DNA of 64,000 nt, taken from Patescibacteria group bacterium. GTDB lineage: Bacteria; Patescibacteriota; WWE3; UBA101185; UBA10185. A program made the translations under genes and the position numbers. This document shows, piece after piece, positions 11,279 through 27,062 of the stretch; the stretch's first letter is position 1, and the number at the start of each line of letters is the position of its first letter. Location: NCBI GenBank assembly GCA_018825365.1, contig JAHJEV010000003.1:108670-172669 (forward strand). Direction: 5' to 3'. Below the pieces are notes generated by a model. The model was not told the origin of the DNA and did not search any database. It saw nothing but the letters and a program-made list of their open reading frames with translations.

Positions 11279-11352
11279 ACCGGCGTAGCTCAGTGGTAGA
11301 GTAGCGGTCTCCAAAACCGTTGATAGAGGTTCGATTCCTCTCGCCGGTGCCA
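11279..11352 (+). tRNA. tRNA-Trp (anticodon CCA)
   Basis: Hand-folded cloverleaf. Acceptor accggcg/cgccggt with A1-U72, anticodon loop CTCCAAA, G73 discriminator and encoded CCA (E. coli-like Trp identity). Confidence 0.9.
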
Positions 11353-11373
11353 AAATTTGTTTATAATAAAGGT

Positions 11374-12405
11374 ATGAGTGAAAACATGAAAAGAGTCTTA
11401 ACAGGAATAAGGCCTACAGGTCCATTGCATTTGGGACATTATGTTGGTGCTTTGAAACAATGGGTTTTACTTCAGGATGAATATGAGTGCTTTTTTATGA
11501 TCGCCGATGTTCAAGCCTTAACCACACACGCCGGTAACCCCAAGGTAATAGAAGAATCGGTTAGGGATGTTTTACTGGATTTTTTGGCAGTTGGACTGGA
11601 TCCGACAAAACCTAATGTTCATTTTATACTTCAAAGTGCAATTCCTGAGCTTGCTGAGCTTACGGTTTATCTTTCAATGGTCACTCCTTTTACGTGGATG
11701 CAAAGCAATCCTACAATTCAGCAAGAAAGTAAAGCTTTAGGTAAAGGTATATCTACAGGTTTTATGTGTTATCCGGTAAGCCAGGCGGCTGATATTTTGT
11801 TTGTTTCTCCTGATCCAACTGAGTCAAAGGAAGAAATATTAGTTCCGGTTGGTGAAGATCAGGTCCCGCATCTAAGAGATACAAACAGCATCGTCTCTGC
11901 TTTTAATAGGACATACTCCCCTACTTTTAATGAATGCAAACCCTTATTGGGAGATTATCCAAGACTTGTTGGTACAGATGGACAATTGAAGATGTCAAAG
12001 TCTTTGGGTAACTGTATAAACCTAGGCGACGATGAAAAAACAGTTGAGAAAATGGTTAAAGGAATGTTTACCGATCCGAATAGAATTCATCCAAACGACC
12101 CGGGGACAGTTGAGGGGAATCCTGTCTTTATATACCACGACATTTTTAATCCCGATAAGAAAGAGGTTTGCGATTTAAAGAAAAGATACAAGGATGGAAC
12201 GGTTGGGGATGTCGAAGTTAAAGAAAAACTTAACGTAGCTATTCAGTCTTTTCTGAAACCTATAAGAGAAAGAAGAAAGCATGCTGAGAAAATGGATATC
12301 AAGAAGTTTTTGGAAGACGGAACAGATTTTGCAAGAGGTCTTGCAGTTAAAACTTTGAGTAGAACTAGAAAAGCCATGCATTTGGATTATCCAAGTTTGA
12401 AATAG
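11374..12405 (+). CDS. trpS: tryptophan--tRNA ligase
   Basis: HIGH-type motif PTGPLHLGHY and KMSKS motif. The start was moved from the ORF-track 11320 to the in-frame ATG at 11374, because the track ORF overlaps tRNA-Trp. Confidence 0.9.
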   Translation: MSENMKRVLTGIRPTGPLHLGHYVGALKQWVLLQDEYECFFMIADVQALTTHAGNPKVIEESVRDVLLDFLAVGLDPTKPNVHFILQSAIPELAELTVYLSMVTPFTWMQSNPTIQQESKALGKGISTGFMCYPVSQAADILFVSPDPTESKEEILVPVGEDQVPHLRDTNSIVSAFNRTYSPTFNECKPLLGDYPRLVGTDGQLKMSKSLGNCINLGDDEKTVEKMVKGMFTDPNRIHPNDPGTVEGNPVFIYHDIFNPDKKEVCDLKKRYKDGTVGDVEVKEKLNVAIQSFLKPIRERRKHAEKMDIKKFLEDGTDFARGLAVKTLSRTRKAMHLDYPSLK

Positions 12406-12496
12406 TATACTTTTATGTTAAACTATCTTTGTTTTTCCTCGTGTGGTATGGCTCAATACACGATGAGGTGGGAGAGATTAAGAAGGGTGGGTGCTT

Positions 12497-12572
12497 AGCG
12501 GGGTAGCCTAGTTAGGTTCAAGGCGTCTCAGTTTAAATGAGAAAATCTCAGGTTCAAATCCTGACCCCGCTA
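12497..12572 (+). tRNA. class I tRNA with anticodon UUA (ochre-suppressor-like); A1-U72, A73, no encoded CCA
   Basis: Hand-folded, every stem Watson-Crick: acceptor agcgggg/ccccgct, D gcct/aggc, anticodon stem tctca/tgaga with loop GTTTAAA (positions 34-36 = TTA), 5-nt variable loop, T arm tcagg-TTCAAAT-cctga. It is followed by ttagc, not CCA. Confidence 0.7.
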
Positions 12573-12602
12573 TTAGCTTATTTATTTAAACCAATCTTTT
12601 AA

Positions 12603-12645
12603 AGGAAGTCTCAAGTAGATGTATCTACAAAGACTTCCTATTTTT
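12603..12645 (+). terminator. intrinsic terminator downstream of the UUA tRNA
   Basis: ggaagtct ... agacttcc gives an 8-bp stem with an internally palindromic loop, followed by tattttttcc. Confidence 0.6.
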
Positions 12646-13110
12646 TCCTAGTCCAACAGTTCTTTCACGCCCCCAAAAGCTATTCTGTCGTGAACATACT
12701 CTTTAGCTGTCAAAAGCTTGGTTGGAGTTATAACGAAATCGCCCTACTTACTATTTATGTCATCCAAAGCCTCTACAAGCCTTTTTTTCCTGTCAATATC
12801 GTTAAAAAGCTCTAGTGTTGGCTGATATCGTAAGGAACGAGTCCAAAACACGGTTCTGCGAGTATTTCGACCGGTTTTTTGTATGGTGAGCCGCATAAAA
12901 TCCTAAAAACTTCCTTAAAGATGTCTCTGGAATCAAAAAGGTTGTGTTTGACGACTTTCCCGTGGTGCCAATAGGTTCCGTCTTTGTAACTTATCGCATA
13001 AAATTGGGGCTACCTCCTCAGGAGTACTAAAAGGTTTTGGTGGTGCAAAGGAATTTCCAAAGCTTTTTCTTTCAAAAGAAACATCATCCATTTCCCATCC
13101 GGTTTTTCTT
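12640..13110 (-). pseudogene. decayed ORF remnants (several frames, no intact ORF)
   Basis: Reverse-strand translation gives protein-like stretches (e.g. ...ITPTKLLTAKEYVHDRIAFGGVKELLD, ...FKEVFRILCGSPYKKPVEILAEPCFGLVPYDISQH) interrupted by stops and frame changes. The six-frame track shows no ORF of 60 aa or more here. Confidence 0.35.
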
Positions 13111-13136
13111 AAATTAGAGACAGTTTTGGCCAGACT

Positions 13137-13892
13137 TTGTTTAAACCTGATTTTATAATATCATTAATAGTAATGCCCAAAGCTCCTTATATTAAAAAAC
13201 TGGAAACGATCGAAGACTTTGACGTTTGGGAAGTAGACGGCGAGCATATTCGAAACAAGATAAACAGAGAATTCACAAACTTCGGACAGCATTTCAGATT
13301 CGATTTTATCCCTACAAAAGAATTTTGGCTTGATAAGCAGCATGGATCTGACGAGAAGGACTACTTTATAGATCATATGTTGGTTGAATGGCATATGATG
13401 AAAAACGGGGTTCCTTACGATAAGGCATTGGGAGCGGCGGACTCACTTGAAAAAAGAGAACGTTCTAAGTCTGATTTGATGAAGAAACTTGAGAAGAAAG
13501 TAAGCAGCATTAATTCTGATATTCCAAAGGAAATATATAAGGAGAAACTTAATAAGTATAAGAGTGTGGTTGAAGTATGTATTGTAAGTGGAGAGGCCGT
13601 AAGAGGACTTTACTTTGTTGATTTCACTGAGGGTGGGCATCATTTTGTGTATGATTTTATTCCCTTAAATGAAGTTTGGATTGACGATGATCTTCCTCCC
13701 GGAGAAAGAGGTTTTGTAATACTTCACGAATTACACGAAAGATTCCTTATGTCTAACGGGATAGATTATGCATATGCACACAGGTCTTCCAGCATTATCG
13801 AATACAAATGTAGAAATAACGAAAAACTTTTAAAAGAGGCAATTGACGCGGAGATAGAAAAAAATAAACAGATTCTGGAAACAATAGTTTAA
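13137..13892 (+). CDS. hypothetical protein with an internal tandem duplication of a roughly 90-aa domain
   Basis: Repeat 1 (...WEVDGEHIRNK...FRFDFIPTKEFWLDK...HMLVEWHMMKNGVPYDKALGA) and repeat 2 (...VSGEAVRGLYFVDFTEGGHHFVYDFIPLNEVWIDD...ILHELHERFLMSNGIDYAYAH) share F.DFIP..E.W.D and H.L.E....M.NG..Y..A. Confidence 0.5.
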   Translation: MFKPDFIISLIVMPKAPYIKKLETIEDFDVWEVDGEHIRNKINREFTNFGQHFRFDFIPTKEFWLDKQHGSDEKDYFIDHMLVEWHMMKNGVPYDKALGAADSLEKRERSKSDLMKKLEKKVSSINSDIPKEIYKEKLNKYKSVVEVCIVSGEAVRGLYFVDFTEGGHHFVYDFIPLNEVWIDDDLPPGERGFVILHELHERFLMSNGIDYAYAHRSSSIIEYKCRNNEKLLKEAIDAEIEKNKQILETIV

Positions 13893-25592: not shown

Positions 25593-25733
25593 TGTTTAGA
25601 ATTATAAACCTTTTAACAGGTAAGGTGGTAAGTGCTTATCGGGGATGGTACAATGCAAATAATTAAGTTTGGTAGAGGTAGTTTGACCAAAACACTCCTT
25701 TGTGTAGGAGAGACGTAGGTAAAATCCTGCCCC

Positions 25734-27062
25734 CTACCCCAGTTTAGTCTTAAGAAAGGTGACGAGATCTTTTTGTTTAATGTTACTTTGCTCTCCCGTC
25801 TTCATGTTTTTTAAAGTTATTGAGGATTCTTTTAATTCTTTTTCACCTATAATGCCCGCGTATTCGACGCCCAGTTTGTTGGAGTACTCGAGTTTTTTAG
25901 TAAGGGATGCCTGATGAGCATAAACTTCAGTGGGTATTGACCTTAACCTTAATTGAGTAGCTATACCAAATGTCTCCGACAACGATTCTGTTAAAGGTAG
26001 TAGTAAAACCTTTGTTGGCGTTAGAGAATGTTTGTCTATTAAATTAAGTTCGTTAAGTTGATAGAAAAGTCTCGTTAAGCCTAAGGAAATCCCAACTCCG
26101 GGTAACTTTTCTTCTGTATAGTATTCGGCTAAATTATCATATCTACCCCCAGAGCAAACAGCTCCTAATTCTGGGTAATCAACTAAAACTGTTTCGTATA
26201 CTGTACCGGTGTAGTAATCTAAACCCCTTGCTACCGATAAATCTATTTTCCAGTTGGTTTCAGGAATATCCAGATACTTAATATATTGCACAACTTCCTC
26301 AAGCTCATTTACTCCGTCTTTGAACATGTTGTTTTCGATTTTAAGTTCTCGTAAACGTTTTATTGTACTCGATGCATCCTCATGTATCGTTAGAAGATTC
26401 GTCAAAACCTCAACCTGATCACTATTTATGTTAAGATTCTTTAATTCCTTTATAAAAACTTCTTTACCAACCTTTTCTAGTTTGTCTATTAACCGCATAA
26501 CATCTGCAACCTGCTCCTTAATGCCTAAATCTTCGATAAAACCGGATAATATTTTTCTGTTGTTTAATTTGATGCAGAACTTTCCTATGCCTAATCTGTT
26601 AAATGTAAAGTACGTTACTGCTAGTATTTCAGCATCATTTACAAAATCTAAATTACCTTTACCTATGATATCTACATCACATTGATAAAACTCTCTAAAC
26701 CTACCTTTTTGTGGTTTTTCACCTCGATAAACTTTACCAATTTGGTATCGTCTAAAAGGAAAAATCAGATCTCGAAAGTGCTGGCTTACATATCTAGCTA
26801 GAGGGACTGTTAGGTCAAATCTAAGAGCCTGGTCGGTATCACCCTTTTTAAATCGGTAGGTTTGCTTAGTCGCTTCAGATCCTGCCTTGGCTAAAAGTAC
26901 CTCTGCTCTTTCAATAATGGGGGTATCTAACGGTACAAAACCAAAAAGCTCGTAGCTTTCCTGGATTGTCCTGAGCATGGAATTGAAAACTAGCTGTTCG
27001 TTAGGCATGAGTTCCATGAAACCCGGTAGTATCGATGGTTTTATTAGGTTCTTGTTGTTCAT
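25734..27062 (-). CDS. hisS: histidine--tRNA ligase
   Basis: Class II aaRS motifs and the HisRS-specific regions (…RYDNLAEYYTEEKLPGVGISLGLTRL…). The start was trimmed to the MNNKNLIKP Met, where plus-strand 27060-62 reads cat. Confidence 0.85.
   Translation of the reverse strand: MNNKNLIKPSILPGFMELMPNEQLVFNSMLRTIQESYELFGFVPLDTPIIERAEVLLAKAGSEATKQTYRFKKGDTDQALRFDLTVPLARYVSQHFRDLIFPFRRYQIGKVYRGEKPQKGRFREFYQCDVDIIGKGNLDFVNDAEILAVTYFTFNRLGIGKFCIKLNNRKILSGFIEDLGIKEQVADVMRLIDKLEKVGKEVFIKELKNLNINSDQVEVLTNLLTIHEDASSTIKRLRELKIENNMFKDGVNELEEVVQYIKYLDIPETNWKIDLSVARGLDYYTGTVYETVLVDYPELGAVCSGGRYDNLAEYYTEEKLPGVGISLGLTRLFYQLNELNLIDKHSLTPTKVLLLPLTESLSETFGIATQLRLRSIPTEVYAHQASLTKKLEYSNKLGVEYAGIIGEKELKESSITLKNMKTGEQSNIKQKDLVTFLKTKLG

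What the first reader, a model, noticed from the sequence alone, without database searches (positions are those of the whole stretch)
11279..12660. Ochre-suppressor-type tRNA (anticodon UUA) immediately after tRNA-Trp and trpS; the only tRNA lacking an encoded CCA
The sequence 12497-12572 folds into a flawless class I cloverleaf (7/4/5/5-bp stems all Watson-Crick, canonical T loop TTCAAAT) whose positions 34-36 read TTA, i.e. a UAA-decoding anticodon (U34 could also read UAG). Its other features are A1-U72, A73 and G32. All 12 other tRNAs in this window encode their 3' CCA. This one does not (it is followed by ttagc) and has no stem similarity to the host tRNA-Lys, Gln or Tyr, which argues for foreign (phage or mobile-element) origin rather than a recent anticodon mutation. 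Yet TAA is clearly used as a stop by long conserved genes here (hutH, the Clp ATPase and others), so a constitutively active UAA suppressor would be harmful. Possibilities are a phage-derived suppressor remnant, a tightly regulated recoding tRNA, or a tRNA-like integration target. It has its own downstream terminator (12603-12645) and is followed by decayed ORF debris.
Basis: seen in the sequence. Interest (0 to 1): 0.75.

Follow-up and report, generated by a model that had tools for sequence, protein, structure and literature searches.

The report
Conserved stop-codon-reading tRNA in a CPR bacterium
A well-formed tRNA gene whose anticodon matches the stop codon UAA sits after the tryptophanyl-tRNA synthetase gene of a tiny uncultured (WWE3/Patescibacteria) bacterium, and related species have kept it by natural selection even though they use UAA as their main stop signal.

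Summary
Window 12497-12572(+) is a canonical 76-nt cloverleaf (Rfam tRNA 65.5 bits; ARAGORN tRNA-Stop) with UUA at positions 34-36, G32, A1-U72 and A73. It is the only one of 13 tRNAs in the window without an encoded CCA. TAA ends 36 of 57 long ORFs, so the host uses the standard code.

The tRNA is not a lone foreign relic. The same gene, 76/76 identical, occurs in three other assemblies of this species. Orthologs lie at the same place (trpS, promoter, tRNA, shared hairpin, convergent dinB) in four more diverged WWE3 lineages. Their anticodons are UUA (two lineages), CUA (one) and GCG (one). Six of 21 stem pairs show compensatory double changes. tRNA identity is 85-87% where trpS third-codon positions are only 60-62% identical. 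No phage, plasmid or metagenome homolog was found.

It belongs to a gain-and-loss-prone cassette of CCA-less odd tRNAs. One sister lineage lost it, and in one population variant other DNA begins at its second base. The "debris" downstream is a decayed dinB gene.

Best reading (about 0.45): a selected, probably weak, UAA/UAG nonsense-suppressor tRNA. Main rival: a tRNA-like RNA that does not decode. Expression, CCA addition and charging are untested.

The parts
11279..11352 (+). tRNA-Trp(CCA) with encoded CCA, 21 nt upstream of trpS. Context only, not part of the cassette.
   Evidence: ARAGORN and Rfam, 71.4 bits. The tRNA-Trp/trpS pairing is conserved in WWE3 relatives.
11374..12405 (+). trpS (tryptophan--tRNA ligase), the housekeeping gene. 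Its stop codon marks the left edge of the variable cassette.
   Evidence: NCBIfam TIGR00233, 264.9 bits, above the cut-off of 176.75. Syntenic in relatives.
12397..12424 (+). Sigma-70-like promoter for the tRNA: TTGAAA, 16 nt, TAAACT, with TG before the -10. Homologous to the cassette promoter of relatives (TTGACC, 18 nt, TATATT with TGT).
   Evidence: Consensus scan. Alignment of the regions just downstream of the trpS stop in six lineages shows the -10 block is conserved. Activity is not tested.
12445..12475 (+). Probable decayed remnant of the second cassette gene (B-type tRNA with an inserted anticodon arm). Limits are uncertain.
   Evidence: GGTATGGCTCAAT aligns to GGCGTAGCTCAAT of the truncated B gene in L108, and the spacer before the UUA tRNA is homologous. 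Weak evidence.
12497..12572 (+). The tRNA: 76 nt, class I cloverleaf, anticodon UUA, G32, A1-U72, A73, no encoded CCA (followed by TTAGC).
   Evidence: Identical copies in L100, L101 and L107. Orthologs in L108, L106, L097 and L105. The family covariance model scores 85-105 bits for members against 64 bits or less for any other tRNA held.
12533..12535 (+). Anticodon TTA (positions 34-36), within the loop G32 U33 U34 U35 A36 A37 A38 (12531-12537).
   Evidence: Read from the sequence, the Rfam alignment and ARAGORN.
12603..12647 (.). Hairpin (12603-12639) plus T tract. An intrinsic-terminator-like element shared by the tRNA and the convergent dinB.
   Evidence: Fold of -17.2 kcal/mol, z -4.39. 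The same hairpin follows every ortholog. The consensus scanner did not list it; its rule allows a single loop of at most 8 nt, which this interrupted stem appears not to fit.
12654..13139 (-). dinB (DNA polymerase IV, IMS/IMS_C) pseudogene. Only the C-terminal ~185 codons remain, with frameshifts and an in-frame TAG.
   Evidence: tblastn with the intact L097 dinB: E 3e-44 and 1e-27 in two frames. The stop codon is identified. The intact gene has IMS and IMS_C domains.

Best explanation
It is a genuine accessory tRNA gene specific to one clade of candidate division WWE3 (Patescibacteria). It is not a one-off relic. It is the third gene (C) of a small cassette of CCA-less, non-standard tRNAs that lies between trpS and a convergent dinB and has its own promoter and terminator.

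Shown: the cloverleaf, the UUA anticodon, orthology by synteny, purifying selection on the structure, persistence of the loop GUUUAAA in three lineages, and standard-code stop usage in the host.

Inferred mechanism:
- The RNA is transcribed from the promoter at 12397-12424.
- It is cut by RNase P and a 3' endonuclease, completed by a CCA-adding enzyme, and charged by a synthetase that tolerates this anticodon.
- Lysyl-tRNA synthetase is the best guess for that synthetase, because U35 and A73 are its main determinants and E. coli lysT ochre suppressors insert Lys.
- The charged tRNA competes with release factors at UAA and, by U34 wobble, at UAG.
- The unusual purine at position 32 and competition from release factors would keep read-through low enough to be tolerated.

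The result would be low-level C-terminal extension or rescue of nonsense alleles, not a changed genetic code.
For:: a canonical tRNA with UUA at positions 34-36.

the same 76-nt gene occurs in four independent assemblies of the species.

orthologs lie at the same locus in L097 (CUA), L106 (UUA), L108 (UUA) and L105 (GCG).

on the four-sequence alignment A5 (window, L106, L097, L105), 98.8% of cells are paired. Six of 21 pairs carry compensatory double changes (1-72, 4-69, 5-68, 11-24, 12-23, 13-22). Only 1 of 500 shuffles reaches the observed covariation score.

tRNA identity to the window copy is 87% (L106) and 86% (L097), where trpS third-codon positions are 60% and 62% identical. The 17-nt anticodon stem-loop is identical in the window, L108 and L106.

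The one change within the UUA group gives CUA, another stop-reading anticodon. The loop changes also fit decoding logic. UUA and CUA copies have A36-A37-A38, as in tRNAs that read UNN codons. The GCG copy has G36-G37, as in tRNAs that read CGN codons (read; the modification rules are recalled, not tested).

promoter-like and terminator elements are conserved across lineages.

PMC13092985 reports suppressor tRNA genes in 0.3% of standard-code bacterial genomes, so the kind exists.
Against: Nothing here shows transcription, CCA addition, aminoacylation or read-through.

The gene encodes no CCA, whereas all 12 other tRNAs in the window do. I could not check whether the genome has a CCA-adding enzyme or RNase Z; a motif scan of the 64-kb window alone was negative.

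G32 is atypical for decoding tRNAs.

The gene is dispensable. The sister lineage L001/L096 lost it together with dinB. In variant L102 unrelated DNA starts at nt 2 of the tRNA. L098 and L109 have no cassette.

TAA is still the main stop, and there is no sign of adaptation to read-through and no TAA-interrupted gene in the window.

The most divergent ortholog carries a sense anticodon, GCG. The two neighbouring cassette genes have aberrant or variable anticodon loops. This could mean the cassette's function does not depend on decoding.

All 20 phage tRNAs with UUA anticodons tested in E. coli extract gave near-background suppression (PMC12636597).
Confidence: 0.45

Rival explanations
1. It is a tRNA-shaped RNA that works outside decoding. 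It might act as a processing or stability element, a decoy, a regulator like the B. cereus pseudo-tRNA, or a carrier for a non-ribosomal aminoacyl-transfer reaction. Selection would act on the fold, and the anticodon would matter little.
For: Orthologs carry three different anticodons: UUA, CUA and GCG. The cassette's A-type genes keep a Gly-like acceptor (G1 C2 G3, U73) and show compensatory changes, but their loops are scrambled, including U37 and G33. The B-type gene has a 76-80-nt structured insert in place of the anticodon loop. All cassette genes lack CCA, while every ordinary tRNA seen encodes it. Each cassette gene is lost in some lineage. A precedent exists for a pseudo-tRNA with a regulatory role (PMC3399842).
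Against: The C-type loop is fully canonical except for position 32. It is identical in three lineages that differ at about 40% of trpS third-codon positions. Under neutrality at about 60% identity per site, seven conserved loop bases would be expected about 3% of the time. The only change within that group yields another stop anticodon. Positions 36-38 co-vary with the anticodon in the way decoding tRNAs do. The C gene is the one retained intact in the window lineage, while A and B decayed.
Confidence: 0.25
2. It is a neutral leftover: a horizontally acquired (phage or mobile-element) or duplicated tRNA that is no longer used, tolerated because it cannot be matured or charged, and on its way to decay.
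For: There is no encoded CCA. The tRNA has lower G+C (47%) than the host tRNA-Trp beside it (56%). It sits in a gain-and-loss-prone spot next to a pseudogene. It is lost in L001/L096 and interrupted in L102. The best phage match, a Rhizobium phage tRNA-Glu, shares the anticodon stem and T loop.
Against: Compensatory stem changes and 85-87% identity at a divergence where silent sites are about 60% identical are not expected of a pseudogene. The promoter and terminator are conserved. No viral, plasmid or metagenome relative was found. The phage tRNA-Glu match is only 81% over 47 nt, E 0.004.
Confidence: 0.1
3. It is a dedicated recoding tRNA. It would read particular UAA or UAG codons in particular genes (programmed read-through), or insert a special amino acid, possibly under control of the cassette promoter and together with the anticodon-shifted Gly-like tRNAs as a deliberate mistranslation module.
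For: The stop anticodon is conserved across species. The cassette has a strong conserved promoter. It is accompanied by Gly-like tRNAs with sense anticodons for Ser, Thr, Asp or Glu codons. It lies next to the error-prone polymerase gene dinB.
Against: No gene in the 64-kb window is interrupted by an in-frame TAA or TAG. There is no extra synthetase, elongation factor or modification enzyme at the locus; the neighbours are dinB, an MFS transporter and two widespread hypothetical proteins. The gene is dispensable in sister lineages.
Confidence: 0.1
4. It is an artefact of assembly or of tRNA prediction (wrong anticodon register, chimeric contig).
For: The source is a metagenome-assembled genome. 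Some assemblies break at exactly this point (L102, L103).
Against: Two independent programs agree on the register. The identical gene is present in four assemblies from different samples, and orthologs occur in four more.
Confidence: 0.02

Closest known systems
Classical E. coli ochre suppressor tRNAs (supG/supL = lysT U36A; supB = glnU; supC = tyrT). Recalled from the literature, not retrieved here.
   Same: A tRNA with anticodon UUA that pairs with UAA and, by wobble, UAG. It is tolerated because ochre suppression is inefficient. The A36-A37-A38 loop context is shared.
   Different: Those are laboratory point mutants of housekeeping tRNA genes and encode CCA. This is a separate gene with no close sense-tRNA parent in the window. 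It lacks CCA, has G32, and is kept across species.
Suppressor tRNA genes found in a small fraction (0.3%) of standard-code bacterial genomes (PMC13092985)
   Same: A chromosomal tRNA with a stop-reading anticodon in a bacterium that still uses that codon as a stop.
   Different: That paper treats them as suppressors of nonsense mutations and gives no UUA or WWE3 example in the passages I read. Here the gene has orthologs with covariation and sits in a cassette of other odd tRNAs.
Phage-encoded suppressor tRNAs of stop-codon-recoded phages (bioRxiv 10.1101/2021.08.26.457843; PMC12636597: 20 of 213 curated phage suppressors are UUA, 11 of them low-confidence)
   Same: UUA-anticodon tRNAs do occur in metagenomic sequence.
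   Different: This one is in a bacterial chromosome between housekeeping genes, with no phage genes nearby. There are no relatives in IMG/VR or INPHARED and no recoded genes nearby. TAA recoding itself is not reported for phages in those papers.
Bacillus cereus tRNA-Other, a pseudo-tRNA with a regulatory role (PMC3399842)
   Same: An extra tRNA-like gene at a variable genomic spot, with a link to trpS (there regulatory, here positional). It is dispensable and possibly not used in translation.
   Different: tRNA-Other carries a Trp anticodon and acts on a T box; no T box was found here (Rfam scans). The present tRNA has a canonical cloverleaf and a stop anticodon.
Natural anticodon-shifted ('mistranslating') tRNAs such as the Streptomyces tRNA-ProX family, and allo-tRNAs with many anticodons. 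Recalled from the literature, not retrieved here.
   Same: Families of accessory tRNA genes whose body is conserved while the anticodon differs between orthologs, including stop anticodons.
   Different: tRNA-ProX comes with its own ProRS paralog, and allo-tRNAs have 8/4 or 9/3 acceptor/T geometry and a long variable arm. Here there is no extra synthetase at the locus, the geometry is the standard 7/5, and the variable loop is short.

Membership tests
Canonical elongator tRNA (Rfam RF00005) | Cloverleaf with 7/4/5/5-bp stems and a 7-nt anticodon loop | tested here: met
   65.5 bits against a gathering score of 29, full-length match. The MFE fold is the cloverleaf. Covariation in orthologs.
Canonical elongator tRNA (Rfam RF00005) | Conserved tertiary nucleotides (U8, A14, G18-G19, A21, U33, purine 37, G53, T54-Psi55-C56, A58, C61) | tested here: met
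   All are present when read from the sequence. The exception is position 32, which is G instead of the usual pyrimidine.
Canonical elongator tRNA (Rfam RF00005) | 3' CCA end, encoded or added | not testable with these tools
   Not encoded: A73 is followed by TTA. Orthologs have CCT or CTA. Whether CCA is added needs RNA data or the full genome, to check for a cca gene.
Nonsense (ochre) suppressor tRNA | Anticodon complementary to UAA at positions 34-36 | tested here: met
   UUA, called by two programs. The same is found in L100, L101, L107, L108 and L106.
Nonsense (ochre) suppressor tRNA | Is aminoacylated and delivers an amino acid at stop codons in vivo | not testable with these tools
   No expression, charging or proteome data are available. 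Lys is only a guess from U35 and A73.
Nonsense (ochre) suppressor tRNA | Arose from a sense tRNA by anticodon change | tested here: inconclusive
   The most divergent ortholog has GCG. The nearest ordinary tRNA to the family model is a WWE3 tRNA-Arg(GCG) at 64 bits. The direction of change cannot be fixed, and the model included the GCG copy.
Phage-borne suppressor tRNA of a recoded phage | Lies in a phage or prophage genome, or has relatives there | tested here: not met
   The flanks are trpS, dinB, an MFS transporter gene and hypothetical genes widespread in the Candidate Phyla Radiation (CPR). PHROGs found nothing. Zero family hits in IMG/VR with five patterns; the best INPHARED hit is 81% over 47 nt.
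Reassigned genetic code (stop codon to sense) | The codon is no longer used as a stop and appears in-frame in conserved genes | tested here: not met
   TAA ends 36 of 57 long ORFs. No TAA- or TAG-split genes were found. The two same-frame neighbour pairs are separate genes: ROK and Nuc_deoxyrib_tr, and an unknown protein and a HAD hydrolase.
tRNA-Pyl / tRNA-Sec / allo-tRNA (special stop-decoding tRNAs) | Non-standard geometry (short D loop and 3-nt variable loop; or 8/5, 9/4, 8/4 or 9/3 stems; long variable arm) | tested here: not met
   Standard 7/5 acceptor/T stems, an 11-nt D loop with G18-G19, and a 5-nt variable loop. The family criteria are recalled from the literature.
Pseudo-tRNA / tRNA-like regulator (B. 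cereus tRNA-Other type) | Poorly charged, not on polysomes, acts on another RNA such as a T box | not testable with these tools
   No T box or other Rfam element is present at the locus. Charging and polysome association cannot be assessed.

The most novel reading that the evidence does not exclude
A clade of standard-code CPR bacteria keeps, under a strong conserved promoter, a small 'decoding-error cassette'. It would comprise a UAA/UAG-reading tRNA plus Gly-like tRNAs with shifted sense anticodons and a tRNA with a large structured anticodon-arm insert, next to the error-prone polymerase gene dinB. On this reading the UUA tRNA would mediate selected, perhaps conditional, stop-codon read-through or statistical proteome diversification. 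That would be a natural bacterial ochre suppressor maintained by selection, not one produced by mutation in the laboratory.
Probability: 0.15. Interest if true: 0.85.

Novelty: new variant of a known kind. Interest (0 to 1): 0.6.

Why it matters
UAA is the stop codon least often reassigned, and ochre suppressors are known mainly as laboratory mutants or as low-confidence predictions in phage metagenomes. This UUA-anticodon tRNA gene is conserved, with compensatory changes, across species-level divergence in bacteria whose main stop codon is UAA. That gives a concrete natural system for three questions. Can free-living (or episymbiotic) bacteria tolerate or exploit constitutive stop-codon read-through? 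How do anticodons switch within one tRNA lineage (GCG, UUA, CUA)? How is a CCA-less tRNA matured in a genome where every ordinary tRNA seen (12 in this window) encodes CCA? The tRNA is also a candidate orthogonal pair for genetic-code expansion. If it proves inactive in translation, it is instead a clear example of a selected tRNA-shaped RNA with another role.

Tried and rejected
- Phage or plasmid origin. Exact and degenerate patterns of the anticodon arm, the D arm and the family consensus found nothing related in IMG/VR. A general GUUUAAA-loop plus T-loop pattern found only one unrelated odd tRNA, in L092. blastn against INPHARED gave at best a Rhizobium phage tRNA-Glu, 81% over 47 nt. blastn against PLSDB gave nothing.
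- JGI metagenome scan. Five hits, none related; the two that ARAGORN called are tRNA-Glu and tRNA-Thr.
- attL/attR-type repeats around the locus: none.
- Debris as an MFS remnant: rejected. It is dinB. Pfam and PHROGs on the joined debris gave nothing.
- Same protein in other assemblies. The trpS look-up gave only the source genome. Relatives were reached through protein clusters instead.
- The small ORF between the A and C genes has no relatives beyond L105 and L106 and no Pfam family.
- Recoding. No TAA- or TAG-interrupted genes and no shift in stop usage in the window.
- CCA-adding enzyme motifs are absent from the 64-kb window, which says little about the whole genome.
- The supplementary tRNA list of Seki et al. 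is not held, so no direct comparison with their 20 phage UUA tRNAs was possible.
- Charging by the neighbouring TrpRS was considered because of A1-U72, G5-C68 and A9. It was set aside: the discriminator is A, not G; C34 and C35 are absent; and orthologs have G1-C72, A5-U68 and G9.
Full report
**Observation**

The window is a 37% G+C stretch of an uncultured Patescibacteria (candidate division WWE3-like) genome. The trpS protein look-up places it on NCBI GCA_018813105.1, contig JAHJCK010000002.1, and its nearest genome-collection relatives are WWE3/Patescibacteria MAGs.

ARAGORN finds 13 tRNAs and calls 12496-12573 'tRNA-Stop (tta)'. The Rfam tRNA model matches 12497-12572 end to end at 65.5 bits (gathering score 29) and puts U-U-A at positions 34-36. 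Read directly, the gene is AGCGGGG UA GCCU AGUUAGGUUCA AGGC G UCUCA GUUUAAA UGAGA AAAUC UCAGG UUCAAAU CCUGA CCCCGCU A.

All 21 stem pairs are Watson-Crick. The usual tertiary nucleotides are present. Position 32 is G, the 1-72 pair is A-U, and the discriminator is A. The free-energy fold is the cloverleaf, z = -4.8.

All 12 other tRNAs in the window end in an encoded CCA; this one is followed by TTAGC. TAA terminates 36 of 57 long ORFs, TAG 14 and TGA 7. Every factual statement in the finding is therefore confirmed.

**Local anatomy**

A sigma-70-like promoter (TTGAAA, 16 nt, TAAACT, preceded by TG) spans 12397-12424 and overlaps the trpS stop. A hairpin at 12603-12639 followed by a T run folds at -17.2 kcal/mol, z -4.4.

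The 'debris' at 12654-13139 on the minus strand is the C-terminal ~185 codons of a DinB-type polymerase gene. It has frameshifts and an in-frame TAG (tblastn with the intact gene of a relative: E 3e-44 and 1e-27). No att-like repeats flank the region.

**Comparative evidence changes the picture**

In more distant WWE3 genomes trpS is followed directly by a P-type ATPase gene, with no tRNA after trpS. In the closer clade the order is:

- YdjM, tRNA-Trp, trpS
- [cassette]
- dinB(-), MFS(-)
- two hypothetical proteins, a further gene in some relatives, then the ATPase

The first of those hypothetical proteins is a widespread CPR protein (1,797 hits). It is not a mobile-element gene.

Using protein clusters of trpS and of that protein, I recovered 13 further contigs. 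The findings were:

- **Same species.** The UUA tRNA is 76/76 identical in three other assemblies: L100 (GCA_043824185.1), L101 (SRR2544004) and L107 (SRR26275509).
- **Orthologs in four diverged lineages.** They lie at the same position, followed by the same hairpin and the dinB 3' end: L108 (UUA), L106 (UUA), L097 (CUA) and L105 (GCG).
- **Family model.** A covariance model of the family scores members at 85-105 bits. The best other tRNA scores 64 bits: a WWE3 tRNA-Arg(GCG).

**Selection**

Covariation was counted on the four-sequence alignment A5 (window, L106, L097, L105). 98.8% of stem cells pair. Six of 21 pairs show compensatory double changes (1-72 A-U/G-C, 4-69, 5-68, 11-24, 12-23, 13-22). 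Only 1 of 500 shuffles reaches the observed covariation score, and structures slid by 1-3 columns collapse to 26-46% paired.

Against the window, trpS third-codon positions are 69% (L108), 62% (L097), 60% (L106) and 51% (L105) identical. The tRNA is 96% (73/76, counted), 86%, 87% and 71% identical. The neighbouring tRNA-Trp stays at 93-95%.

The anticodon stem and the T arm are invariant. The whole loop GUUUAAA is identical in the window, L108 and L106. By parsimony on the trpS distances, the ancestor of the window, L001, L108, L097 and L106 carried UUA, and L097 changed to CUA (C34, A32).

Positions 36-38 track the anticodon. They are A-A-A with UUA and CUA, and G-G-A with GCG. That is what decoding tRNAs for UNN and CGN codons show; this rule is recalled knowledge, not tested here.

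A pseudogene or a random tRNA look-alike does not behave this way.

**Turnover**

The gene is one of three CCA-less genes in a cassette driven by a conserved promoter (TTGACC, 18 nt, TATATT with TGT).

- **Gene A** keeps a Gly-like acceptor (G1 C2 G3, U73), but its anticodon loop differs in every lineage: UGA, CGU, AUC, and a loop with G33. In L108 it carries a partial duplication.
- **Gene B** is a tRNA whose anticodon loop is replaced by a 76-80-nt structured insert. It is truncated in L108 and probably reduced to a remnant in the window at about 12445-12475. L105 and L106 have a small orphan ORF in its place.
- **Gene C**, the subject here, is lost together with dinB in the sister lineage L001/L096. 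It is absent, with the whole cassette, from L098 and L109. In population variant L102 unrelated DNA begins after nt 2 of the tRNA, and contig L103 breaks at the same base.

So C is selected for its structure but is not essential.

**Origin**

I found no support for a phage or plasmid source:

- Six IMG/VR pattern scans found no relative: five found nothing at all, and the general GUUUAAA-loop pattern found only an unrelated odd tRNA.
- The JGI metagenome scan gave only unrelated tRNAs.
- The best of 50,697 phage records is a Rhizobium phage tRNA-Glu, 81% identical over 47 nt.
- There was no plasmid match.

**What it most likely does**

The host is not recoded. TAA is the main stop. The two same-frame neighbour gene pairs are separate genes, and gene ends coincide with those of the 92%-identical relative.

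I favour, at about 0.45, a real but weak nonsense suppressor. The inferred steps are:

1. Transcription from its own promoter.
2. Processing at both ends.
3. Non-templated CCA addition.
4. Charging by a synthetase that accepts U35 and A73. Lysine is the best guess, by analogy with E. coli lysT ochre suppressors and with the known tendency of CUA or UUA suppressor bodies to be charged by LysRS or GlnRS (recalled knowledge).
5. Competition with release factors at UAA and UAG, damped by the odd purine at position 32.

Only the sequence-level features are shown; every biochemical step is inferred.

The main rival, at about 0.25, is a tRNA-shaped RNA whose role does not involve decoding. The aberrant sister genes, the missing CCA and the GCG ortholog suggest it. 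The conserved canonical stop-anticodon loop argues against it. A neutral relic (about 0.1), a dedicated recoding system (about 0.1) and an artefact (about 0.02) are less likely.

**Comparison with what is known**

Suppressor tRNA genes occur in 0.3% of standard-code bacterial genomes (PMC13092985). UUA-anticodon tRNAs make up 20 of 213 curated phage suppressors, 11 of them low-confidence and none active in E. coli extract (PMC12636597). A pseudo-tRNA with a non-translational role is known in B. cereus (PMC3399842).

This case belongs to the known kind 'natural suppressor-type tRNA gene'. It differs in five ways:

- It is chromosomal.
- It has orthologs across species, with covariation.
- It lacks CCA in a genome whose other tRNAs seen here all encode it.
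- Its anticodon switches within one lineage.
- It is embedded in a cassette of other non-standard tRNAs.

I rate it a new variant of a known kind, interest 0.6.

Noticed in passing
L001 5110-5184; L096 3388-3462; L097 1192-1266; L104 and L106 3129-3200; L105 4440-4512; L108 3068-3153: First cassette gene (A-type). These are CCA-less tRNAs that keep a Gly-like acceptor (G1 C2 G3 and U73, as in the host tRNA-Gly) and show compensatory stem changes. The anticodon loop differs in every lineage and is partly non-canonical: UUUGAUG, UUCGUUA, UUAUCAA, UGCUCAA. L108 has a partial duplication that forms an extra arm.
   Followed up: partly
L001 5199-5340; L096 3477-3618; L097 1281-1426; truncated in L108 3171-3205; possible remnant in window 12445-12475: Second cassette gene (B-type). 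This is a tRNA (Rfam 51 bits) whose anticodon loop is replaced by a 76-80-nt insert. The insert folds into an extended helix and contains CUGAUGA. It is too short for a group I intron, and no Rfam family other than tRNA matches.
   Followed up: partly
L102 4521-4745 (ENA ERZ27247117 k141_419447); the L103 contig ends at the same point: A population variant is identical to the window up to nt 2 of the UUA tRNA and then continues into unrelated DNA. The minus strand of that DNA ends an ORF (...KFRHLNGKTPIESTLKSNEEIPNIFN*) that resembles a DDE transposase C-terminus. The resemblance was not tested. It suggests an insertion at or in the tRNA gene.
   Followed up: no
window 12654-13139 (-): dinB (Pol IV) is a 5'-truncated, frameshifted pseudogene here, and the adjacent MFS transporter gene of relatives is gone. 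Both are intact in L097 and L098, and dinB is intact in L108.
   Followed up: yes
window 25672-25738 (+): An intergenic, weakly tRNA-like sequence (24 bits, E about 0.002 with my family model). It has an acceptor-like GGTAGAG/CCCTACC pairing and a CTCCT-TTGTGTA-AGGAG arm. Neither ARAGORN nor Rfam calls it. It is possibly a decayed tRNA.
   Followed up: partly
window 13173-13892 (+): A hypothetical protein with two internally similar halves and an HELHE motif (Pfam Peptidase_M78 only at E 0.1). It has about 1,800 homologs across Patescibacteria, none annotated.
   Followed up: partly
L105 4547-4807 and L106 3235-3528: A small orphan ORF (86-97 aa, with a good Shine-Dalgarno sequence) sits between the A-type and C-type tRNAs, in place of the B-type gene. 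It has no Pfam family and no other homolog in 5.8 billion proteins.
   Followed up: yes
L082 551-583 and L085 11084-11116 (JGI metagenome contigs): Identical sequences with a tRNA-like 3' two-thirds whose anticodon-arm-like hairpin reads CUUCA GUUCAAA UGAAG, which places UCA (the UGA-reading anticodon) at the anticodon position. ARAGORN does not call them. They are unrelated to the finding.
   Followed up: no
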